From sequence record NC_055721.1: a stretch of DNA of 64,000 bases; one strand, 5' to 3'. Of the stretch, positions 952 to 48,075 are shown in pieces. The notes under the pieces are model-generated. The model was given only the letters and a program-made list of their open reading frames with translations, searched no databases and was not told where the DNA came from. Origin of the DNA: Escherichia phage EcS1. Position numbers and translations under genes: made by a program. The number at the start of each line of letters is the position of its first letter. Position 1 is the first letter of the stretch.

Positions 952-1401
952 TTACATATCTACCAATTTGCCGTTTTTAACTCGCATAACTTTAGCGGCT
1001 AATTTATTAGTTGGATTTTTCTGACGGACAATAGATGCTAAGCTATTAGCTGCTGTTTTAGCTGCGGCATAATCGTCATACCAATCACGACCAGTTTTAA
1101 TACGCTTAGTTCCTTTGTCTACTGTAACAATCCATTGAGATTGATCATTAGGGTCCATTTCTATGCGAATATCACCACCTGATACTAAACCAGATTGGAC
1201 CTTAGTAGGTTTGTTAGGGACAGTACCACCTAATGCTTTCGCCGCCTTTACAGCATCTTCATAACTCAGCCCAGCTTCAATAGTTTCAGCCTTGCGTCCT
1301 TTGCCACGATTAACATTAAAGGTTGTACCCCATCCAGGAACAATTTCAATATCCATTTCATGTTTTGCCGCTTCAGCTATAAATTCTTGATAAGTTTTCA
1401 T
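952..1401 (-). CDS. internal head protein (IPII/IPIII-like) with capsid targeting sequence
   Basis: N-terminus MKTYQEFIAEA matches the T4 internal-protein capsid targeting sequence with a gp21 protease site after the Glu; basic 149-aa protein. Confidence 0.6.
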   Translation of the reverse strand: MKTYQEFIAEAAKHEMDIEIVPGWGTTFNVNRGKGRKAETIEAGLSYEDAVKAAKALGGTVPNKPTKVQSGLVSGGDIRIEMDPNDQSQWIVTVDKGTKRIKTGRDWYDDYAAAKTAANSLASIVRQKNPTNKLAAKVMRVKNGKLVDM

Positions 1402-5363: not shown

Positions 5364-6172
5364 TTCACCTCAACATGCTTAGTACGACACATCTTAACAA
5401 ACTCTTCTACAGCAAGAAGATTTACGCCTTTATCATGATCAACAAATGATTTCATTTGTTCTGGTAAATCTTCTAAGAACCATTGGCGATTTTTATCACT
5501 ATAACTTCCACGAGAAGATTCAAAATTATACACACTCATGCATAAAGCAAATCGGAATGTTTTACCTTCAATACGAGCTTCAAACCAGGCACCATATAAA
5601 GATTCAGTAGAATATTTACTTGAATCAGGTTTAATAAAATGATTAGCAGCATCATTATAATGCATCAAAGAATATTCATAAGCTCTGAGACCTAAGAACT
5701 TAATACCTTCAGACATACAAGAAACATCTTTTATAACTTTCAAAAATGTTTTTGAATCTTTAACATATACTGGAGCTGGGATTTTATTACCAATAGCATA
5801 TTGATGCATACGGATTTTATCAGTGCTCTGACGTTCGATATGCTTTACAATGTAATGTAAAAATGTATTAGGTGCTCCAGTATCAATTAGCTGTTGCATC
5901 ATAAGTACTCCGCCTGCGCTTGTTACATTCGACGGAATTTTAAATTTTTCTGGCTCTGCAGTCCAGACACCATCGCCTTCATAAAACATATTATTTCTCT
6001 CACTTAAAGGTAATGAATTTAATGCAATGAGTGCTTTCACTACGTATGAATCAAGTTTGCTCAATTCATAATTATCATGTAACAATGGTGTAATAAAACC
6101 TACACTCAGAGCATGTTCTTGACCTTGTTTGTTCGCATAGAAAACACGAAAGTCGTTAGTGAAAATAAACAT
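5360..6172 (-). CDS. hypothetical protein
   Basis: 270-aa ORF, 4-nt overlap with the downstream gene; no motif recognised. Confidence 0.55.
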   Translation of the reverse strand: MFIFTNDFRVFYANKQGQEHALSVGFITPLLHDNYELSKLDSYVVKALIALNSLPLSERNNMFYEGDGVWTAEPEKFKIPSNVTSAGGVLMMQQLIDTGAPNTFLHYIVKHIERQSTDKIRMHQYAIGNKIPAPVYVKDSKTFLKVIKDVSCMSEGIKFLGLRAYEYSLMHYNDAANHFIKPDSSKYSTESLYGAWFEARIEGKTFRFALCMSVYNFESSRGSYSDKNRQWFLEDLPEQMKSFVDHDKGVNLLAVEEFVKMCRTKHVEVK

Positions 6173-6211
6173 TGTTCCTCCAAAGAGGACCGAAGTCCTC
6201 TTTATTACGAT

Positions 6212-6817
6212 TTATGCTTTCAGAGATTCGAGGTATTCAGCCAAGTCAGCGCTGGTAGACTCGACACCTGTTGCATTGCTGCCGTTGAATGTATCGATAC
6301 GAGAGATAATGGTATCAACATCAACTTTAGCGAGTTCAGCTGTTTCAATGATATCGTCTGCGGTAGAGAGACCCATTGAGTTGGCTGCATTACTTTCACG
6401 GATGAACTCAAGCTTAACAGCCAGGTCAGCACGTTGGTCATCAAGAGCAACTGTAGTACGTTCAATTTCTTCTTGCATTGCTACAAGTTCAGAAGCTTTA
6501 GTACGAAGAGCTGCTGCGGTACGACGATACAGAAGACCCAGTTTAGCGTGAGTGGTCACATCAACTGTAGGCTGAGTTTGCATCAGATGACGGATTTCAC
6601 GTTCTTTAGAAGCTGCATTTTGGTCTTTTTCATCAGCCAGAGCTTTCAAACGTGAGATTTCTTTCTTAGAAGTCGCATAACGTTTACGCAACTGATTGAT
6701 TTTATCGATGATTTTGTTCGCTGCTTCAGCATACTGTTGTTCGATTGTAGTGTGCTTAGTCATGAAGAAAGACAGCTGAGAACGAATGAATTCAACGATT
6801 TTTTTCAGAATAGACAT
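6212..6817 (-). CDS. coiled-coil protein, PspA/IM30-like (tentative)
   Basis: 201 aa; N-terminal amphipathic helix followed by long charged heptad-like stretches (RLKALADEKDQNAASKEREIRHL..., ELVAMQEEIERTTVALDDQRADLAVKLEF...) resembling the PspA/Vipp1 family. Confidence 0.45.
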   Translation of the reverse strand: MSILKKIVEFIRSQLSFFMTKHTTIEQQYAEAANKIIDKINQLRKRYATSKKEISRLKALADEKDQNAASKEREIRHLMQTQPTVDVTTHAKLGLLYRRTAAALRTKASELVAMQEEIERTTVALDDQRADLAVKLEFIRESNAANSMGLSTADDIIETAELAKVDVDTIISRIDTFNGSNATGVESTSADLAEYLESLKA

Positions 6818-8119: not shown

Positions 8120-8196
8120 TGGTGCTGAATGCAGGAATCGAACCCGCGACCTTCTCATTACAAGTGAGCTGCTCTACCTACTGAGCTAATTCAGCA
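8120..8196 (-). tRNA. tRNA-Thr (anticodon TGT)
   Basis: Cloverleaf read by hand; sequence closely resembles T4 tRNA-Thr; CCA encoded. Confidence 0.75.
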
Positions 8197-8199
8197 ATT

Positions 8200-8284
8200 T
8201 GGTGCATCGAGAGGGATTCGAACCCTCAATCCTCGCGGCGTGGCATTTTAAGTGCCATGTGTATACCAGTTCCACCATCGATGC
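8200..8284 (-). tRNA. tRNA-Leu (anticodon TAA)
   Basis: 85-nt class II tRNA with long variable arm; anticodon loop CTTAAAA; CCA encoded. Confidence 0.7.
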
Positions 8285-8288
8285 GAAT

Positions 8289-8363
8289 TGGTCGAGACAG
8301 TAGGGATCGAACCTACGACCTAGGACTTAGAAGGTCCTTGCTCTTCCGTCTGAGCTATGCCCC
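8289..8363 (-). tRNA. tRNA-Arg (anticodon TCT)
   Basis: Anticodon arm GGAC-CTTCTAA-GTCC, T-loop TTCGATC, CCA encoded. Confidence 0.7.
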
Positions 8364-8525
8364 GTCTTTGTATAAACGTTCTAAGTAAACATGCTCCATC
8401 GGTTTAACGATTTCGCCTTGTTTCAATAATTGTGTTTGAATAGGATTCAAATTATAAAATTTGATCACATCTCTGAGATCTTGTTCGCTATAATTAAAAG
8501 TTCCTACTTCTACTCCGATTTGCAT
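8355..8525 (-). CDS. hypothetical small protein (56 aa)
   Basis: Small ORF between tRNA genes, not in the supplied track (below its length cut-off); stop overlaps the tRNA-Arg 5' end. Confidence 0.25.
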   Translation of the reverse strand: MQIGVEVGTFNYSEQDLRDVIKFYNLNPIQTQLLKQGEIVKPMEHVYLERLYKDGA

Positions 8526-8537
8526 AAGTATCCTTTT

Positions 8538-8624
8538 TGGAGCTAGGAGTGAGATTCGAACTCACGAAAGCATAACGCTACTGGATTTGCAATCCAGCGC
8601 CTTTGACCACTCGGCAATCCTAGC
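8538..8624 (-). tRNA. class II-type tRNA with anticodon GCA (Cys) and U73 discriminator
   Basis: 87 nt; acceptor GCTAGGA/TCCTAGC, Ser/Tyr-like D-arm GCCGAGTGGTCAAAGGC, anticodon stem CTGGA/TCCAG with loop TTGCAAA, 15-nt variable arm, T-loop TTCGAAT. Confidence 0.5.
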
Positions 8625-8626
8625 AA

Positions 8627-8754
8627 ATGTTCAGGTGGGAGTCGAACCCACACGATTGAAGCCTCTCATCGGGTTACCTCTTACTCAGCTGGGTGCTTAA
8701 ACCAGCGTTTCAAACAGAGTCCGCCAACATGTCTACCGATTCCATCACTGAACA
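8627..8754 (-). ncRNA. tRNA-like stable RNA candidate (about 128 nt)
   Basis: Perfect 7-bp acceptor-like pairing (TGTTCAG/CTGAACA) next to a canonical T-arm (GTGGG-TTCGACT-CCCAC) and a Leu-like D region (GGAATCGGTAGAC), but too long for a tRNA and without a clean anticodon arm. Confidence 0.35.
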
Positions 8755-8758
8755 ATTT

Positions 8759-8983
8759 TTACATATCTACTTGACAAAACCAGTTCATTTCAAAATATTC
8801 ATCAAAATGTAATGCAGGTTCTACTTGACAATTTTCTTCTAATAAGACCAAATTTCTTCTAACAATAGGGTCTAATGACGTGATGGTCAAAGCACTATCA
8901 TGATAGTAAATCAGAACACGAAGCGAATCTGTATCAACTAAATACCGAACATTCATATCAGGATGTTTGTAGAGGTTAATCAT
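8759..8983 (-). CDS. hypothetical protein
   Basis: 74-aa ORF upstream of the tRNA block. Confidence 0.4.
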   Translation of the reverse strand: MINLYKHPDMNVRYLVDTDSLRVLIYYHDSALTITSLDPIVRRNLVLLEENCQVEPALHFDEYFEMNWFCQVDM

Positions 8984-8989
8984 AACATT

Positions 8990-9436
8990 TTATCCTTGAA
9001 GCATTTCACGAACACGATAAAGATTAGAACAGAATTCTTGTTCAGTTAGAACAGTTTCATTCTTTTTATTCTTACCCATGCTATGAGTTAATGTTGAGTT
9101 ACGCGTAGCTAGGAGTGCTCTCTTGAATCCTTCATTCAAAGCCAGAGAATCATATGCTCGCTGAATTAAAGACGTATAGGCTATACTTTGACGTAAAATA
9201 GGGACACCTTTCCAGTACAACGTTTGGGTGCGCCACCAGTTCTTTTTCTTACCTTTGAACTTAGCTTTCTTACCAACTAATGTACAGACATGCTCTTGCA
9301 TTTCTACTGAAGAAAACTTCAATGATTGCAAGAAACCTTCCATTGATGCACACTGTACTCCATCAATTTCGAAAGCATGAGGAGCAAAGTTACTTAATGC
9401 ACAACTTGGGTACATTGAACCTGAACCAATATCCAT
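8990..9436 (-). CDS. NADAR-domain protein (YbiA/DUF1768-like)
   Basis: LSNFAPHAFEIDGVQCASMEGFLQSLKF and FKRALLATRNSTLTHS match conserved NADAR blocks (compare E. coli YbiA FSNFAAWPIKVDGKTWPTSEHYFQAQKF and LRALLLATAPAKLVEHT). Confidence 0.65.
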   Translation of the reverse strand: MDIGSGSMYPSCALSNFAPHAFEIDGVQCASMEGFLQSLKFSSVEMQEHVCTLVGKKAKFKGKKKNWWRTQTLYWKGVPILRQSIAYTSLIQRAYDSLALNEGFKRALLATRNSTLTHSMGKNKKNETVLTEQEFCSNLYRVREMLQG

Positions 9437-9527
9437 TATCCATTATTCCTTTGATGATAATAACAGCGTTTACATCGATACCAACCGAAATAATCTTTGT
9501 AGATTATTCTATTGCAGTTGGGACATT

Positions 9528-9782
9528 TCATGCTGGTTCTACCTCAGTCATTGTTGTCCGTTTCAGAACCACACAACCTTCTATTTCAGGGTCTTTCTTA
9601 ACCAGAACTCGTCCAGTAGGCGAAATAAGGCCAGTAATATGATTCAGAGCTTTAGCAGCATCATTGAAGCCATCAGCTTGCATAATCGTTCCGAATGAGA
9701 ACCCTTGATAGTGATTACTAAACTCGTAATAAGCGTATTCTTCACGAATAGGGCAATAAATCACATAATCAACATTCAGCAT
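9528..9782 (-). CDS. hypothetical protein
   Basis: 84-aa ORF. Confidence 0.4.
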   Translation of the reverse strand: MLNVDYVIYCPIREEYAYYEFSNHYQGFSFGTIMQADGFNDAAKALNHITGLISPTGRVLVKKDPEIEGCVVLKRTTMTEVEPA

Positions 9783-10114
9783 AAGTCACCTACACATTGG
9801 AGAGCACGATGGTGTGACCATATTTCTAAAGTCTTTTCGTTGGCTTTATTAATTCGACGAAGGTCATTTAAATTACCTTTAACATATAACCCAAGTTCAC
9901 TTAACAAATGATCGATAGTGAAATAAGAAATATCTCGCAGTGGAGCATAACGGAACTTAATGAAGTGCCATTCATCAAACTCGTTTTTGGTAAACGCATA
10001 ATCAGCATGCATCATGAGTTCGCGAATCGTTTCACGCATCAAAAAGACATTACCGTGATAAGAATCATTTATAGCAACAATATGTGGACCTACACCTAGA
10101 TAGATACGAGACAT
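9776..10114 (-). CDS. hypothetical protein
   Basis: 112-aa ORF preceded by RBS GAGGAAA. Confidence 0.45.
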   Translation of the reverse strand: MSRIYLGVGPHIVAINDSYHGNVFLMRETIRELMMHADYAFTKNEFDEWHFIKFRYAPLRDISYFTIDHLLSELGLYVKGNLNDLRRINKANEKTLEIWSHHRALQCVGDLC

Positions 10115-10133
10115 AATATTTTCCTCAGTCAGT

Positions 10134-10304
10134 TTATTCTACATCATATTCAACTACAAGCACTTCTTCATAATCTTCAGGATTAAGAGTTTTAATGTAG
10201 TCTTCTGCTTTTTCTTTACTCGATAGAATCTTTAATGGCTTTGAATATTCATCATATCCATATTCACAGTTAAACTCTGACATAACAACTGCGTATACTA
10301 TCAT
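10134..10304 (-). CDS. hypothetical small acidic protein (56 aa)
   Basis: ORF below the track cut-off; the same RBS (GAGGAAAATATT-ATG) as the downstream gene. Confidence 0.35.
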   Translation of the reverse strand: MIVYAVVMSEFNCEYGYDEYSKPLKILSSKEKAEDYIKTLNPEDYEEVLVVEYDVE

Positions 10305-10324
10305 AATATTTTCCTCATTTGAAT

Positions 10325-10401
10325 TGGTGGCCCTTGTCGGAGTCTAACCGACCTTACACCAGTTATGAGCTGGGCACTTTCACACGAAAGTATAAAGGGC
10401 C
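10325..10401 (-). tRNA. tRNA-Met-like (anticodon CAT), non-canonical D and T loops
   Basis: 77 nt with perfect acceptor stem and CCA, anticodon loop CTCATAA; D-loop lacks GG and T-loop is TTAGACT. Confidence 0.4.
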
Positions 10402-10458
10402 ATTATTAAAATATTTTTACTTTAATAATGGCCCTCTCCGAAGAGAGGACAGAGGGTA

Positions 10459-10743
10459 TTACTTACACATGAACTTAGCAACTTCATCGAAGCTGTTCAA
10501 GATGTAATAAGACTTAGGCGCACTGTATTCAGTAGGTTTAATAGTAATACGTACACGACCATGCAAGTCTTCAACTAATCCAACAACAGCACTTGAACGA
10601 ACAACAGCACGAGCAGTTGTAGGAATCTGACCGGTAGTCAGAGCTTGAAGTTCGGTGTCAATAAGGATTACAATACGTTCAGACATTTTAATTTCCATTT
10701 GTTGTTTCGATGTAGTAATAATAACATGATTATTTTGAAGCAT
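10459..10743 (-). CDS. hypothetical protein
   Basis: 94-aa ORF; start uncertain (internal Met candidates). Confidence 0.4.
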   Translation of the reverse strand: MLQNNHVIITTSKQQMEIKMSERIVILIDTELQALTTGQIPTTARAVVRSSAVVGLVEDLHGRVRITIKPTEYSAPKSYYILNSFDEVAKFMCK

Positions 10744-10801
10744 AACCGTTCAGAGACTAAAAAGCCCAGTACAAGATTTCTCTTGCCCGGGCGTCATTAT
10801 T

Positions 10802-10876
10802 TGGAGCAGCATATCGGACTCGAACCGATGTCGACTGGGTGGAAGCCAGTAATATTAACCACTATACGAATGCTGC
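10802..10876 (-). tRNA. tRNA-Gly (anticodon TCC)
   Basis: Acceptor GCAGCAT/ATGCTGC, anticodon arm ACTGG-CTTCCAC-CCAGT, T-loop TTCGAGT, CCA encoded. Confidence 0.7.
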
Positions 10877-10877
10877 A

Positions 10878-10951
10878 TGGCAGGCCCTGTAGGAATCGAA
10901 CCCACGTCGCTGAGGTTGGAGCTCAGAATGATACCACTATACCAAGGACCC
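10878..10951 (-). tRNA. tRNA-Trp (anticodon CCA)
   Basis: Anticodon arm CTGAG-CTCCAAC-CTCAG, T-loop TTCGATT, CCA encoded. Confidence 0.65.
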
Positions 10952-11102
10952 GTTGATTGTACGGAACGCCTGGATTCGAACCAGGTTACAAAGCAGTTGA
11001 CGCTCCTTTGTATTTTGTAAGGCCATCATCTCGACCATATCCGAACGTTTCGTCAAAAACGCTACTCGGCTTATGGCAAAGACAAATCCTCGAACCGATA
11101 AT

Positions 11103-11177
11103 TGGTGGGAGCTGTTGGTAACGATCCAACCTCTCGAGCTCTTCAGGCAAGCGCTAATCCGTCTCAGCTAAACTCCC
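11103..11177 (-). tRNA. tRNA-Phe-like (anticodon GAA), weakened anticodon stem
   Basis: 75 nt, acceptor GGGAGTT/AGCTCCC plus ACCA; anticodon loop CTGAAGA; two mismatches in the anticodon stem and an atypical T-loop. Confidence 0.4.
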
Positions 11178-11262
11178 AGATCCACAAGAACTTTACAAGC
11201 ATTGCGCTTAACCTTTTCAGGAAGTTAGGGTACTATTTCTAGTCTGTGGTTATCCCTATTTT

Positions 11263-11338
11263 TGGTGGGAATAGCTGGATTTGAACCAGCGACCTATCGC
11301 TTATCGGGCGAGTGCTCTACCAACTGAGCTATATTCCC
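11263..11338 (-). tRNA. tRNA-Ile (anticodon GAT)
   Basis: Acceptor GGGAATA/TATTCCC, D-arm GCTC-AGTTGGTA-GAGC, anticodon loop CCGATAA (C33), T-loop TTCAAAT, CCA encoded. Confidence 0.6.
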
Positions 11339-11344
11339 ATAATT

Positions 11345-11421
11345 TGGTCTCCATATAAGGATTTGAACCTTAGACCTCCTGGCCCCAAACCAGGCGCTCT
11401 ACCAAACTGAGCTACACGGAG
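11345..11421 (-). tRNA. tRNA-Pro (anticodon TGG)
   Basis: Anticodon arm CCTGG-TTTGGGG-CCAGG, T-loop TTCAAAT, CCA encoded. Confidence 0.7.
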
Positions 11422-11422
11422 A

Positions 11423-11668
11423 TTAATTTATATCAAATATGGTGCCATCTTTCCACATCATTGCGAAAAGAGGTGAAACTTTTGTTAAACGGTGTGCAAC
11501 TTTAACTTGACGGCTAAAACCTTCAATTTGAGCACCATAACCATTTATATCTAATACAAGACCAATATGAACTTTGCCAATATCAGACATACCATTTGAA
11601 GGTAATCCAATCATGACATAATCGTTAACTTCGATTTGTTTACCATATTTGTCAAATAATATCTTCAT
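11423..11668 (-). CDS. hypothetical protein
   Basis: 81-aa ORF embedded in the tRNA cluster. Confidence 0.4.
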   Translation of the reverse strand: MKILFDKYGKQIEVNDYVMIGLPSNGMSDIGKVHIGLVLDINGYGAQIEGFSRQVKVAHRLTKVSPLFAMMWKDGTIFDIN

Positions 11669-11693
11669 AATTATTTATTCACCATATTTTAAT

Positions 11694-11787
11694 TGGAGGA
11701 AGCTGTGAGATTTGAACTCACGGAACCTGTCCCCAGGACCTCTAGTTTTCAAGACTAGTGCAATAAACCAGACTCTGCCAAGCTTCC
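11694..11787 (-). tRNA. tRNA-Ser (anticodon TGA)
   Basis: 94-nt class II tRNA; anticodon arm CTAGT-CTTGAAA-ACTAG, long variable arm, T-loop TTCAAAT, CCA encoded. Confidence 0.7.
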
Positions 11788-11791
11788 GAAT

Positions 11792-11867
11792 TGGGGTGAC
11801 CTGTGGAATTCGAATCCACGACTACGAGAATCACAATCTCGAGTTCTACCAACTGAACTAAGGCCAC
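11792..11867 (-). tRNA. tRNA-His (anticodon GTG)
   Basis: Anticodon arm CGAGA-TTGTGAT-TCTCG, T-loop TTCGAAT, CCA encoded. Confidence 0.7.
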
Positions 11868-11967
11868 ATCAATATTCACTCAGCCACTTCGTGCGGACCT
11901 GTCTCGATATTACGTGTAGTGGATTAGCTAGTTCACACCACTATATCGTCTAGAATGAATATTAATT

Positions 11968-12043
11968 TGGCTAGAGCGCTTGGATTCGAACCAAGGAATA
12001 CCAGAATCAAAATCTGGTGTCGTAACCGCTTGACTACGCTCTA
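11968..12043 (-). tRNA. tRNA-Gln (anticodon TTG)
   Basis: Perfect acceptor TAGAGCG/CGCTCTA, anticodon arm CCAGA-TTTTGAT-TCTGG, T-loop TTCGAAT, CCA encoded. Confidence 0.7.
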
Positions 12044-12045
12044 AT

Positions 12046-12121
12046 TGGAGGCGAGTGATGGAATCGAACCATCGCGTAAAGGGATATGAACCCTTTATTC
12101 TACCACTGAAGTTAACTCGCT
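12046..12121 (-). tRNA. tRNA-Met (anticodon CAT), initiator-like features
   Basis: Anticodon loop TTCATAT closed by three consecutive G-C pairs (GGG/CCC); 1-72 position is an A-C mismatch; T-loop TTCGATT; CCA encoded. Confidence 0.55.
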
Positions 12122-12248
12122 ATTGTCCGGGTTCTCGAAGTAAAAACAAGTAGCTTGATGTAGAACACATAAAGTGGGAACAACTCACTTCATCTCCTAG
12201 CATTATTGTATGGAGACTCAAACTCATCTTCAAGAACTGCTTCGTATT

Positions 12249-12325
12249 TGGCGGACGTGCTTGGACTCGAACCAAGGACCTATCGCTTAACAGGCGACCG
12301 CTCTAACCAACTGAGCTACACATCC
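12249..12325 (-). tRNA. tRNA-Asn (anticodon GTT)
   Basis: Anticodon loop CTGTTAA, T-loop TTCGAGT, CCA encoded. Confidence 0.7.
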
Positions 12326-12329
12326 AAAA

Positions 12330-12461
12330 TTTACTTTCAGGGTTACTCGAAGCTCTCAAACCTTCCGGAAAGTCGAATAAGCATCTCATCCTCTCAGAAT
12401 CCCGTGCACAGGAAAAATCTTTATTAGGAGGAGACTAAATCAATATAACCCTGAAAGTAAA
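12330..12461. repeat. perfect 16-bp inverted repeat flanking a 100-nt spacer
   Basis: TTTACTTTCAGGGTTA (12330-12345) and its exact reverse complement TAACCCTGAAAGTAAA (12446-12461); the spacer contains the palindrome TTCCGGAA. Confidence 0.6.
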
Positions 12462-12475
12462 CTTACTTTCGAATT

Positions 12476-12552
12476 TGGTGGGACATCATGGACTCGAACC
12501 ATGGACACCCGGATTAAAAGTCCGGTGCTCTAACCAACTGAGCTAATATCCC
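12476..12552 (-). tRNA. tRNA-Lys (anticodon TTT)
   Basis: Anticodon arm CCGGA-CTTTTAA-TCCGG, T-loop TTCGAGT, CCA encoded. Confidence 0.7.
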
Positions 12553-13060
12553 ATAGATATTTATCTATAAATCTCTTAGCTTGAGTATGACTTATATTTA
12601 AACTTTTACTAAACTTGGTTAATGCACCTCGTTTAGTAAAATCTATTAAATTATAAGCTTCAATTCTAGAAGCAATTTCTTCTTCAGACAAAACCAAAGC
12701 ATGGTTTTCTGAAATCTTTTTACGAGATTCTGTTGTATGTGACATACCAGTAAAACCAAGAGTAGGTTTTAGTCTACCATTAGCTTTAGCGTCTTGTGCA
12801 TTTTGTTTATTTGTCGCACAATAAATGTTTTCTAATGAATAAGGACCTATATCGCCTTTACGACACATGCAATAATCCAAACTTGCTTTACCACGTAAAT
12901 GATATTTACCTGTTGATTTCCACCAAGTAAACCACTCATCAAAAGTTAGATTAAATTCAATACCACGAGCTTTGGCATGAACTTTTTGCATACGGTACTT
13001 TTCATAATCTTCCATACAACTCTCACAAATTGGCAGTGCCGACGGGATTCGAACCCGCAT
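12530..13060 (-). CDS. putative HNH-type homing endonuclease with NUMOD-like and HTH-like C-terminal motifs
   Basis: CxxC plus Cys/His-rich N-terminal region (CESC...DYCMCRKGDIGPYSLENIYCATNKQN), NUMOD3-like GFTGMSHTTESRKKISENH, C-terminal HTH-like segment; both ORF ends overlap tRNA genes, so the true start is probably the internal Met at about 13015. Confidence 0.45.
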   Translation of the reverse strand: MRVRIPSALPICESCMEDYEKYRMQKVHAKARGIEFNLTFDEWFTWWKSTGKYHLRGKASLDYCMCRKGDIGPYSLENIYCATNKQNAQDAKANGRLKPTLGFTGMSHTTESRKKISENHALVLSEEEIASRIEAYNLIDFTKRGALTKFSKSLNISHTQAKRFIDKYLWDISSVG

Positions 13061-13105
13061 GGTCTCCCGTGACAGGGGAGTATATTACCAAGTCTACCAC
13101 GGCAC
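13030..13105 (-). tRNA. tRNA-Asp (anticodon GTC)
   Basis: Perfect acceptor AGTGCCG/CGGCACT, anticodon arm CTCCC-CTGTCAC-GGGAG, T-loop TTCGAAT, CCA encoded. Confidence 0.7.
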
Positions 13106-13111
13106 TATTGT

Positions 13112-13187
13112 TTGGTACTCTGTAGGAGAATTGAACTCCTCTTCCCAGGTTGAAAACCTGGTGTCCTAACCGATAGACGAACAGAGC
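13112..13187 (-). tRNA. tRNA-Glu (anticodon TTC)
   Basis: Anticodon arm CCAGG-TTTTCAA-CCTGG, T-loop TTCAATT, CCA encoded. Confidence 0.65.
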
Positions 13188-13195
13188 TAAGAATT

Positions 13196-13284
13196 TGGTG
13201 CACCGAGAAGGACTCGAACCTACGAAGCTCATTACAAGCAGGAGATTTACAGTCTCCACCCTTTGCCACTCGGGTCATCGATGC
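13196..13284 (-). tRNA. tRNA-Tyr (anticodon GTA)
   Basis: 89-nt class II tRNA; D region CCCGAGTGGCAAAGGG and anticodon arm GGAGA-CTGTAAA-TCTCC resemble E. coli tRNA-Tyr; CCA encoded. Confidence 0.65.
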
Positions 13285-48036: not shown

Positions 48037-48075
48037 AAAAAAAAGGGAACCATATGGTTCCCTTTTTTTGTTTTT
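48035..48075. terminator. bidirectional intrinsic terminator between gene 24 and rnlB
   Basis: A10 - GGGAACCATATGGTTCCC palindrome - T7GT5; serves both convergent genes. Confidence 0.65.

What the first reader, a model, noticed from the sequence alone, without database searches (positions are those of the whole stretch)
12330..12461. Perfect 16-bp inverted repeat enclosing a 100-nt spacer next to the endonuclease gene
TTTACTTTCAGGGTTA and its exact reverse complement bracket a 100-nt segment that contains the palindrome TTCCGGAA; a direct copy of TTACTTTC follows the right arm. The element lies between tRNA-Asn and tRNA-Lys, upstream of the HNH gene. It could be a structured RNA (a long stem-loop), a MITE-like remnant, or a recombination or endonuclease target site.
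Basis: seen in the sequence. Interest (0 to 1): 0.45.

Follow-up and report, generated by a model that had tools for sequence, protein, structure and literature searches.

The report
Unannotated structured RNA in phage tRNA cluster
The inverted repeat is the long closing helix of a conserved, about 139-nucleotide structured RNA that sits among the tRNA genes of about 200 sequenced T4-like phages of Klebsiella, Enterobacter, Serratia, Erwinia and Pectobacterium; it has no Rfam match and its function is unknown.

Summary
A perfect 16-bp inverted repeat (19 bp at 95%) brackets 100 nt at 12327-12464. None of 200 simulated windows contained such a repeat.

It is neither a transposon remnant nor an endonuclease site. 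The window comes from a T4-like phage. The element lies on the minus strand inside the tRNA gene cluster, between tRNA-Lys and tRNA-Asn.

Homologues occur in about 198 phage records across six lineages: Winklervirus, Roskildevirus, Karamvirus, Marfavirus, Jiaodavirus and Pectobacterium phages PM2/POP12. All lie in tRNA clusters on the tRNA strand.

In a 14-sequence alignment, 53 base pairs are 93.5% maintained and 36 show compensatory double changes (0 of 500 shuffles reach this). The repeat arms form helix P1, where 12 of 24 pairs covary. The fold is a three-way junction: P1, P2 (invariant GA-rich internal loop, apical UGCA loop) and P3 (apical CCGG loop).

It matches no Rfam family. It is distinct from T4 rnaC, which has its own homologue at 10960-11098, and from T4 rnaD.

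Most likely it is a small stable RNA cut out of the tRNA precursor, like T4 species 1 and 2 RNAs. Function is unknown. The self-complementary apical loops hint at RNA-RNA pairing.

The parts
12327..12464 (-). Whole structured RNA element, about 138-139 nt (covariance-model hit 12327-12465). It forms a three-way junction P1/P2/P3.
   Evidence: Models R1 and R2 score 153 bits on the minus strand and 24-28 bits on the plus strand. MFE is -48 kcal/mol with z = -5.1. Covariation is shown.
12445..12464 (-). 5' strand of helix P1.
   Evidence: It pairs with 12327-12346. In helix 1, 12 of 24 pairs show changes on both sides and 94.5% of cells are paired.
12327..12346 (-). It ends 1 nt before the 5' end of tRNA-Asn.
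   Evidence: In six lineages a tRNA 5' end follows within 0-8 nt. In Marfa-like phages, Pet-CM3-4 and PM2 another spacer RNA follows instead.
12440..12443 (-). Inner segment of P1 (P1b), 5' strand UUGA. It pairs with UCGA at 12347-12350 across an A bulge.
   Evidence: Pairs 23-26 with 120-123 in A14. This segment is less well kept in Karamvirus.
12383..12435 (-). Helix P2 domain. It has a basal stem, then an asymmetric internal loop with invariant UAAYRAAGAU (12417-12425) opposite UGAGAG (12391-12396), then the apical hairpin P2b.
   Evidence: In helices 2 and 3, 14 of 17 pairs show double changes. The invariant columns are listed.
12404..12409 (-). Apex of P2b: a UGCA tetraloop closed by G-C, giving the palindrome GUGCAC.
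   Evidence: The loop is UGCA in 13 of 14 sequences. POP12 has AUGCAU. Jiaodavirus has a 7-nt loop GGUACCA that contains a different palindrome.
12352..12382 (-).
   Evidence: In helix 4, 10 of 12 pairs show double changes. The loop is CCGG in most sequences, CGCG in POP12 and UUCG in Jiaodavirus.
12465..12475 (-). 11-nt leader AAUUCGAAAGU between the CCA end of tRNA-Lys and P1. It can pair with the P1 5' strand to form an alternative hairpin, H0 (12464-12475 with 12447-12459).
   Evidence: One search gives H0 at -8.1 kcal/mol. An equivalent GAAAG...CUUUC hairpin exists in every lineage examined. Per-lineage leader shuffles give only p = 0.03-0.28, so this part is suggestive only.
12249..12325 (-). 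tRNA-Asn (GUU), immediately 3' of the element. Its RNase P site would define the element's 3' end.
   Evidence: ARAGORN and Rfam. The RNase P step is inferred.
12476..12552 (-). tRNA-Lys (UUU), immediately 5' of the leader.

Best explanation
The inverted repeat is the terminal helix (P1, about 24 bp) of a gene for a small structured non-coding RNA of about 139 nt. The RNA is transcribed from the minus strand as part of the polycistronic tRNA precursor of a T4-like phage.

Shown: the RNA folds as a three-way junction, P1 plus hairpin domains P2 and P3. All helices are maintained by compensatory substitutions across six phage lineages. The fold is strand-specific, with many G-U pairs. Several unpaired segments are invariant: UAAYRAAGAU opposite UGAGAG, which probably form a tandem sheared G-A motif, and the apical UGCA.

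Inferred: RNase P cleavage at the 5' end of the downstream tRNA creates the 3' end of the RNA flush with P1. 3' processing of the upstream tRNA, followed by trimming back to P1, creates the 5' end. Both termini are then locked in a long helix and the RNA accumulates as a stable species, as T4 species 1 (rnaC) and species 2 (rnaD) RNAs do.

Inferred, weaker: a leader copy of the P1 3' strand forms a transient hairpin (H0) with the P1 5' strand during transcription. The true 3' strand then displaces it.

The invariant internal loop and apical loops are the likely contact surface for a protein or RNA partner. The molecular function is unknown.
For: The element lies on the tRNA strand between tRNA-Lys and tRNA-Asn.

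Homologues occur in 58 + 137 + 3 phage records. All examined lie in tRNA clusters in the same orientation.

RNAalifold on 7 sequences gave 38 pairs, 19 with compensatory changes. A manual P1 re-alignment gave 26 of 53 pairs compensatory. The model-based alignment of 14 sequences gave 93.5% of cells paired, 36 of 53 pairs with double changes and 0 of 500 shuffles reaching this; slid controls were 35-49% paired.

Strand asymmetry is strong: 153 against 24-28 bits and MFE -48.4 against -32.8 kcal/mol.

No promoter-like or terminator-like site lies inside the element.

In six lineages the P1 3' strand ends 0-8 nt before the next tRNA.

The same cluster carries a clear T4 rnaC homologue. T4 rnaD homologues lie directly upstream of the element in LC53, Karamvirus, Marfavirus, Jiaodavirus and PM2. 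The element therefore sits among known small stable RNA genes.

T4 RNAC and RNAD are expressed, and RNAC was confirmed by Northern blot (PMC9697503).
Against: There are no expression or end-mapping data for this RNA in any phage.

The element is dispensable. Close relatives (CHI14, Gravdalen) lack it, as do T4 and Merlin.

Virsaitis27 has degenerate P2b and P3 apices, and Jiaodavirus has a shortened P3. Not every feature is under equal constraint.

The 14 sequences represent only about 8 independent lineages, and the alignment used was fitted to the model structure.

Support for H0 is modest.
Confidence: 0.78

Rival explanations
1. The element is purely a cis-acting processing cassette. P1 is an RNase III site or a structural insulator. 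It brings the 3' end of one tRNA next to the 5' end of the following tRNA, separates the precursor into units, and the excised piece has no function of its own.
For: P1 is about 24 bp and AU-rich, which is long enough for E. coli RNase III (established knowledge). At least two other inter-tRNA spacers in the same cluster also close with a terminal helix that runs from just after one tRNA to just before the next. These are 12122-12248 and 11868-11967. In the latter the stem is conserved while the interior varies. From my own knowledge, not retrieved here (one search found no paper): RNase III takes part in T4 tRNA precursor processing and cleaves T4 species 1 RNA in vitro.
Against: The interior of this element is as conserved as P1. 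It has invariant unpaired blocks (UAAYRAAGAU, UGAGAG, UGUGCAC) and covarying P2 and P3 helices. A mere cleavage stem would not need these. Related phages process the same tRNAs without the element. This rival does not exclude the main explanation.
Confidence: 0.2
2. The element is a DNA-level mobile element (a MITE-like remnant) whose terminal inverted repeats are the two arms.
For: It has terminal inverted repeats. It is present in some Winklervirus genomes and absent from others. A partial third copy of the arm lies next to the right arm.
Against: There is one copy per genome and no other copy of the 16-mer in 64 kb. No copies were found in bacterial genomes. The arms evolve by compensatory changes and G-U pairs that work on one strand only. 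No target-site duplication flanks the arms. The presence/absence polymorphism is a swap of [element + 77-nt tRNA-Asn] for an 81-nt tRNA-Asn, not a clean insertion.
Confidence: 0.03
3. The element is the recognition or cleavage site of the neighbouring HNH-like homing endonuclease, or some other recombination site.
For: It lies close to a free-standing endonuclease-like ORF (12530-13060). It contains palindromes (GTGCAC, TTCCGGAA). tRNA clusters of T4-like phages are known homing hot spots (PMC2330249).
Against: The ORF is present next to the element only in the window phage and LC53. Virsaitis27, Karamvirus, Marfavirus, Jiaodavirus and the Pectobacterium phages have the element without the ORF nearby. 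A homing site is expected in genomes that lack the endonuclease gene, at the position where the gene inserts, and that is not where the element lies. SegB targets tRNA T-arm DNA. The covariation pattern is that of an RNA.
Confidence: 0.03
4. The element is an intrinsic terminator or attenuator that controls read-through into the downstream tRNAs.
For: A long hairpin-like fold is followed by UUUU. The alternative leader hairpin H0 resembles an anti-terminator/terminator arrangement.
Against: The base of P1 next to the U run is AU-rich, not GC-rich. The terminator scan finds nothing here. Essential-looking tRNAs follow immediately with no promoter of their own. The U run is only 3-4 nt and is itself paired within P1.
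Confidence: 0.03
5. The inverted repeat is a chance feature of AT-rich DNA.
For: None beyond the AT-richness of the region.
Against: None of 200 simulated windows contains such a repeat. The repeat is conserved and covaries in about 200 phage genomes.
Confidence: 0.005

Closest known systems
Bacteriophage T4 species 1 and species 2 RNAs (rnaC, rnaD): small stable RNAs encoded in the T4 tRNA gene cluster
   Same: They share the genomic niche: inside the tRNA cluster, on the same strand, with no promoter of their own. They are of similar size (119-139 nt). Their 5' and 3' ends are paired. Their function is unknown. The element is directly flanked by an rnaD homologue in several phages, and an rnaC homologue lies 1.2 kb away in this window.
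   Different: There is no sequence or profile similarity to either RNA. The element lacks the tRNA-like T-arm of rnaC. It is absent from T4. It carries its own invariant motifs and a much longer terminal helix.
phi29-family prohead RNA (pRNA)
   Same: The overall shape is similar: a long helix formed by the paired 5' and 3' ends, a three-way junction and two hairpin arms. The apical loops have sequences suited to intermolecular Watson-Crick pairing.
   Different: No Rfam pRNA match appears at E <= 10. In pRNA the two loops are complementary to each other, whereas here each loop is self-complementary. T4-like packaging motors are not known to use an RNA. This is a resemblance of shape only.
HIV-1 dimerisation initiation site (DIS) and other kissing-loop dimerisation hairpins
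   Same: The hairpin apex carries a 6-nt palindrome. GUGCAC is the very sequence of some HIV-1 DIS variants (own knowledge). Jiaodavirus presents GGUACC in a 7-nt loop.
   Different: In most lineages the palindrome sits in a 4-nt loop closed by G-C, which is too tight to kiss without opening the closing pairs. No dimerisation data exist. There is no evolutionary relationship.
RNase III processing stems of rRNA operons and phage T7 early transcripts
   Same: A long helix is formed by sequences that flank an RNA to be excised from a polycistronic precursor.
   Different: Here the excised interior is a small RNA with its own conserved motifs. Cleavage by RNase III has not been tested.
Bacterial Y RNAs (YrlA)
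   Same: Both have a long terminal stem formed by the 5' and 3' ends plus a structured distal module. YrlA RNAs also occur in some phages.
   Different: The Rfam YrlA model hits only tRNA pairs in this window, not the element. The element has no tRNA-like module, and no Ro/Rsr gene was seen.

Membership tests
T4 rnaC (species 1 RNA) | Sequence homology to T4 rnaC, including its tRNA-like T-arm GGGUUCGAAUCCC | tested here: not met
   blastn and nhmmer place the rnaC homologue at 10960-11098 (85% identity), not at the element. The element has no T-arm motif.
T4 rnaD (species 2 RNA) | Sequence homology to T4 rnaD (invariant AAGUCGUC ... ACGGCGC) | tested here: not met
   rnaD homologues are separate, adjacent units upstream of the element in LC53, Karamvirus and Marfavirus. 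The window has the element without rnaD. T4 has rnaD without the element.
Phage tRNA-cluster small stable RNAs (the kind, not a homology family) | Encoded within the tRNA gene cluster, on the tRNA strand, without its own promoter or terminator | tested here: met
   The same context is seen in every homologue examined.
Phage tRNA-cluster small stable RNAs (the kind, not a homology family) | Accumulates as a discrete stable RNA after processing of the precursor by RNase P and other nucleases | not testable with these tools
   This needs Northern blotting, RNA-seq and end mapping. Only the juxtaposition with a tRNA 5' end is shown.
Any Rfam 15 family | Covariance-model score at or above the family gathering threshold | tested here: not met
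   cmscan at E <= 10 on 7 kb, on the element alone and on the Jiaodavirus homologue gave only tRNAs and sub-threshold noise. The best non-tRNA hit was 24 bits against a 70-bit gathering score.
MITE / transposon remnant | Multiple dispersed copies with terminal inverted repeats flanked by target-site duplications | tested here: not met
   There is a single copy in the window and in each related locus. No flanking duplication is present. None was found in bacterial genomes.
RNase III substrate | A roughly 20-bp or longer, largely regular double-stranded RNA helix | tested here: met
   P1 has 24 pairs interrupted by a single unpaired nucleotide (plus a 1-nt bulge in some lineages), and 94.5% of cells are paired across homologues.
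RNase III substrate | Actual cleavage by RNase III | not testable with these tools
   This requires an in vitro cleavage assay or a comparison of rnc mutant and wild-type hosts.
phi29-type pRNA | Homology to pRNA and intermolecular pairing between its two loops | tested here: not met
   There is no RF00044 hit. The two loops (UGCA, CCGG) are not complementary to each other.
Intrinsic terminator | GC-rich stem immediately followed by a U run | tested here: not met
   The scan finds no terminator-like site in 12300-12480. The base of P1 is AU-rich.

The most novel reading that the evidence does not exclude
The RNA may be a self-associating molecule. Its two apical loops are self-complementary: UGCA/GUGCAC on P2 and CCGG on P3. 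This property is kept even where the sequence changes, as in AUGCAU and CGCG in POP12 and GGUACC in a 7-nt loop in Jiaodavirus. Pairing inside a 4-nt loop cannot explain it. The loops could mediate kissing-loop homodimers or higher assemblies, comparable in principle to the HIV DIS or to phi29 pRNA rings. Alternatively they could dock onto other palindromic RNA sites. That would make this a phage-encoded RNA scaffold or decoy, for example against a host RNA-targeting defence, produced from the tRNA operon.
Probability: 0.12. Interest if true: 0.75.

Novelty: new member of a known kind. Interest (0 to 1): 0.5.

Why it matters
T4's tRNA cluster has been known for fifty years to encode two small stable RNAs whose roles are still unknown (PMC3014915, PMC9697503, PMC12685909). 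This element is a further, unrelated RNA of the same kind with very strong comparative support. None of the GenBank records examined annotates it as an RNA; several call a 'hypothetical protein' over it.

It occurs in about 200 sequenced phages. Many of these are Klebsiella and Enterobacter phages studied for therapy.

Together with the other terminal-helix spacers found here, it suggests that tRNA clusters of T4-like phages are mixed operons of tRNAs and several families of structured RNAs. Its natural presence or absence among close relatives (LC53 and Virsaitis27 against CHI14 and Gravdalen) gives ready-made material for testing function.

At the least, annotation pipelines should stop placing ORFs over it.

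Tried and rejected
- **Rfam.** Searches of the region, of the element alone and of a divergent homologue gave nothing above noise.
- **Homology to T4 rnaC/rnaD.** blastn, nhmmer and covariance models rejected this for the element, but revealed rnaC and rnaD homologues elsewhere.
- **Paralogy with the neighbouring spacer 12122-12248.** Short repeats D3 and D8 suggested it. The two do not align convincingly, so it is treated as a separate RNA.
- **Coding potential.** Only a 28-aa ORF overlaps the element, it runs into tRNA-Asn, and it is not conserved. The substitution pattern is compensatory rather than codon-like.
- **Trans-target search.** No second site in 64 kb is complementary to the invariant UAAYRAAGAUU.
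- **Host origin.** There is no match in 5,426 E. coli genomes. No true hit appears in 100,044 bacterial species representatives by pattern plus model.
- **Ribozyme classes.** Hammerhead, HDV-like, twister-sister, hatchet and pistol were considered. The junction lacks their cores and Rfam gives no hit.
- **Other classes.** Retron msr-msd, ToxI-like antitoxin RNA, a CsrA sponge, a T-box-like specifier and an anticodon-loop decoy were considered from the sequence. All were dropped for lack of defining features.
- **Literature.** Searches for a prior description found none. The supplement of the 10,006-motif phage RNA catalogue (PMC10690425) is not held, so prior listing there could not be excluded.
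- **RNase III in T4 tRNA processing.** A literature search found no paper to cite.

Full report
**Observation.** The sequence is as described. TTTACTTTCAGGGTTA lies at 12330-12345 and its exact reverse complement at 12446-12461, with 100 nt between them. The pairing extends to 19 nt at 95% (12327-12345 / 12446-12464). TTCCGGAA is at 12363-12370. A copy of TTACTTTC follows the right arm at 12463-12470. The 16-mer occurs nowhere else in the 64-kb window, even allowing 3 mismatches. None of 200 first-order Markov simulations of the window contained a perfect 16-bp inverted repeat within 200 nt. The real window has two; the other, at 48038-48069, looks like an ordinary bidirectional terminator.

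**Context.** ARAGORN finds 17 tRNA genes at 8120-13284, all on the minus strand, and Rfam adds one more at 11106-11177. The nearest relatives are T4-like phages (Straboviridae, Tevenvirinae, genus Winklervirus), with Serratia phage LC53 at 88% identity. An IMG/VR contig of 175 kb carries an identical element and neighbourhood (L011). On the transcribed strand the order is tRNA-Asp, a 176-codon ORF, tRNA-Lys, an 11-nt leader, the element, then tRNA-Asn. The element is therefore downstream of the ORF, not upstream. The ORF has no Pfam hit. Its best PHROG match is a family of unknown function, and it gives only marginal hits to HNH families.

**It is a conserved RNA.**
- blastn finds the element in 58 phage records: Karamvirus, Marfavirus, Roskildevirus FBB1, and Winklervirus LC53 and Virsaitis27.
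- Covariance models add Jiaodavirus (137 records, all at least 95% identical to one another) and Pectobacterium phages PM2 and POP12.
- In every locus examined the element lies in the tRNA cluster on the tRNA strand.
- RNAalifold on seven sequences predicted 38 pairs, 19 of them with compensatory changes.
- MAFFT shifted the outer 5' strand by one base in some lineages. I therefore re-aligned P1 by hand (26 of 53 pairs compensatory). I then built a model from four well-aligned sequences with the full structure and let it align 14 homologues.
- On that alignment 93.5% of cells form standard pairs and 36 of 53 pairs show changes on both sides. No shuffle out of 500 reaches any of the five measures. 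Sliding the partners by 1-3 columns drops pairing to 35-49%.
- The alignment was fitted to the structure, which favours it. The effect is nevertheless far larger than that bias, and it agrees with the two independent counts.

**The repeat arms are an RNA helix.** Examples are UUUAC/GUAAA against UUAUC/GAUAA, UUUUC/GAAAA and UUCGC/GCGAA, and GGGUUA/UAACCC against GAGUAU/AUACUC and GCAAUAA/UUAUUGC.

**Strand.** The fold belongs to the minus-strand transcript. It contains invariant G-U pairs (for example columns 4-142; G-U also predominates at 58-65, 89-114 and 92-112) that would be A-C mismatches on the other strand. The models score 153 bits on the minus strand against 24-28 bits on the plus strand. 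The MFE is -48.4 kcal/mol (z = -4.4) against -32.8 kcal/mol.

**Anatomy (RNA sense, window coordinates).**
- **P1:** 12445-12464 pairs with 12327-12346. An inner 4-bp segment (12440-12443 with 12347-12350) follows across a single unpaired nucleotide.
- **Junction:** a 4-nt junction leads into P2.
- **P2 (12383-12435):** a basal stem, then an asymmetric internal loop with invariant UAAYRAAGAU on the 5' side and UGAGAG on the 3' side. Their geometry suggests tandem sheared G-A pairs with a 5-6-nt bulge, resembling a K-turn (my inference from the sequence). A 7-10-bp hairpin, P2b, follows, capped by UGCA.
- **P3 (12352-12382):** a hairpin capped by CCGG.

**Relation to known RNAs.**
- Rfam 15 gives nothing but tRNAs and sub-threshold noise, whether on 7 kb, on the element alone or on the Jiaodavirus homologue.
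- T4 encodes two small stable RNAs in its tRNA cluster, rnaC and rnaD.
- A full-length rnaC homologue (85% identity) is present in this window at 10960-11098, so the element is not rnaC.
- rnaD homologues, recognisable by invariant AAGUCGUC and ACGGCGC, lie immediately upstream of the element in LC53, Karamvirus, Marfavirus, Jiaodavirus and PM2.
- The two are separable modules. The window phage, Virsaitis27 and FBB1 have the element without rnaD. T4 has rnaD without the element. CHI14 and Gravdalen lack the element.
- The functions of rnaC and rnaD remain unknown (PMC3014915; PMC9697503, which confirmed RNAC by Northern blot; PMC12685909).

**Presence and absence.** In CHI14 and Gravdalen the slot [element + canonical 77-nt tRNA-Asn] is occupied by an 81-nt tRNA-Asn(GUU) with a long variable arm. 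This is a cassette exchange rather than a clean insertion or deletion. Exchange of this kind fits the known homing-endonuclease-driven turnover of T4 tRNA regions (PMC2330249). The endonuclease-like ORF is adjacent only in the window phage and LC53, where it is unannotated. SegB, the characterised enzyme of this niche, cuts within tRNA T-arm DNA. Nothing links the ORF to the element.

The 11-nt leader between tRNA-Lys and P1 (AAUUCGAAAGU) is a degenerate copy of the P1 3' strand (AACCCUGAAAGUA). Together with the first base of P1, it can pair with the P1 5' strand to form a 12-bp hairpin, H0.
- An equivalent hairpin, GAAAG-N4-14-CUUUC, can be drawn in every lineage. Its extensions follow the lineage's own P1 sequence: GAUA/UAUC in Marfa-like phages, UAAAC/GUUUG in LC53, and a UUCG-capped version in Jiaodavirus.
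- One metagenomic variant keeps it through A-to-G changes that give G-U pairs.
- Shuffling the leaders gives only p = 0.03-0.28 per lineage, because purine-rich leaders pair easily with the pyrimidine-rich strand.
- I therefore rate H0 as suggestive. It could be a co-transcriptional folding intermediate that holds the 5' strand until the 3' strand is made, as reported for E. coli SRP RNA (own knowledge).

**Mechanism.** What is shown is a conserved, strand-specific, three-helix RNA fold embedded in a tRNA operon, with no promoter or terminator signals of its own. What is inferred is its release.
- The P1 3' strand ends 0-8 nt before the next tRNA in six lineages, so RNase P cleavage of that tRNA would leave the element's 3' end flush with P1.
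- Maturation of the upstream tRNA's 3' end, followed by trimming, would define the 5' end.
- Both ends would then be protected in a 24-bp helix.
- P1 is also long enough to be an RNase III substrate.

Two other spacers in the same cluster are built the same way, with a terminal helix that spans from one tRNA to the next: 12122-12248 and 11868-11967. Terminal helices may therefore be a general processing or insulating device in these operons. In this element, however, the interior is as constrained as the stem, which argues for a function of the excised RNA itself.

**A lead on function.** Both apical loops are self-complementary, UGCA and CCGG. This property survives sequence change. POP12 has A[UGCA]U and CGCG. 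Jiaodavirus presents GGUACC in a 7-nt loop, although its P3 is shortened and capped by UUCG. The central bases of a 4-nt loop cannot pair with each other, so intramolecular pairing does not explain this. Loop-loop pairing between molecules, or with another palindromic RNA site, is a testable possibility. The number of independent lineages is small, and in most lineages the loops are too tight to pair without opening the closing pairs. I give it about 12%.

**Distribution.**
- Pattern scans followed by model filtering found no further lineage in IMG/VR beyond those named.
- Only two Marfa-like copies turned up in JGI metagenomes.
- None turned up in one genome per bacterial species, and none in E. 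coli genomes.
- The family appears restricted to T4-like phages of Enterobacterales. The pattern scans require exact conserved blocks, so they can miss divergent members.

**Verdict.** The structured-RNA reading is right. The MITE and endonuclease-target readings are not supported. The element is a new family within a known kind, the small structured RNAs of T4-type tRNA clusters. It has excellent comparative support and unknown function.

Noticed in passing
window 10960-11098 (-): A full-length homologue of T4 rnaC (species 1 RNA), 85% identical to T4, lies between tRNA-Trp and the tRNA at 11106-11177. Homologues also occur in LC53, EnA02 and other loci, none annotated in the stretches examined. 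ARAGORN called part of it in L019 as a 96-nt 'tRNA-Phe'.
   Followed up: partly
window 12122-12248 (-): The spacer between tRNA-Asn and tRNA-Met is a second conserved candidate RNA of about 125 nt. It is present even in CHI14, which lacks the inverted-repeat element. It has a covarying 12-bp closing stem (CAGUUCUUGAAG / CUUCAGGAAUC; Marfa has CAGUCUAAAGAG / CUCUUUAGAC) and invariant GUUCCC and CCGGA blocks. No homologue is seen in the T4 tRNA region.
   Followed up: partly
window 11868-11967 (-): The spacer between tRNA-Gln and tRNA-His closes with a conserved 14-bp terminal helix (AUUAAUAUUCAUUC / GAGUGAAUAUUGAU) around a poorly conserved interior. This is the same end-to-end architecture as the element under study.
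   Followed up: partly
L001 2773-2876, L006 1640-1746, L007 1640-1787, L099 3214-3339, L136 about 6367-6520 and 6150-6215: Homologues of T4 rnaD, none annotated as an RNA, sit directly upstream of the element in LC53, Karamvirus, Marfavirus, Jiaodavirus and PM2. PM2 appears to have rnaD-like sequence on both sides of the element.
   Followed up: partly
L016 1548-1628, L006 1747-1828, L004 1660-1741, L007 1788-1870, L099 3340-3424: Related phages carry an 81-85-nt tRNA with anticodon GUU (Asn) and a long variable arm, a class II shape that is unusual for tRNA-Asn. In the window phage, LC53 and Virsaitis27 a canonical 74-77-nt tRNA-Asn plus the element takes its place.
   Followed up: partly
window 11106-11177 (-): Rfam reports a tRNA here at 36 bits that ARAGORN misses. 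LC53 annotates a tRNA-Phe at the corresponding position.
   Followed up: no
window 12530-13060 (-): The endonuclease-like ORF overlaps tRNA-Asp at its 5' end, so the true start is probably the internal Met at codon 16. It overlaps tRNA-Lys by 23 nt at its 3' end. An 88%-identical homologue in LC53 (L001 2953-3459) is not annotated. It has no Pfam domain.
   Followed up: partly
window 48038-48069: A 32-bp perfect palindrome, AAAAAAAAGGGAACCATATGGTTCCCTTTTTTT, flanked by A and T runs. It looks like a bidirectional intrinsic terminator.
   Followed up: no
window 10396-10435: A 15-bp perfect inverted repeat (GGGCCATTATTAAAA / TTTTAATAATGGCCC) with a short loop, just upstream (in plus-strand coordinates) of the tRNA cluster.
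   Followed up: no
window 8538-8624 and 8365-8537 (-): tRNA-Cys is unusually long at 87 nt. A 173-nt unannotated gap separates it from tRNA-Arg, possibly another spacer RNA.
   Followed up: no
L141 about 1096-1195 (+): In Pectobacterium phage POP12 the segment upstream of the element contains a tRNA-like sequence with a T-arm (GCGGGUUCGAAUCCUGC). It is enclosed by a very long extended acceptor-type stem (AAAAUCUUAGGGUUGACG ... CGUCAACGCCUAAGAUUUU). It is not annotated in the GenBank record.
   Followed up: no
L007 1529-1762 and many Jiaodavirus and Marfavirus records: GenBank annotations place 'hypothetical protein' CDSs across the rnaD homologue and the element. These are probably false gene calls.
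   Followed up: no
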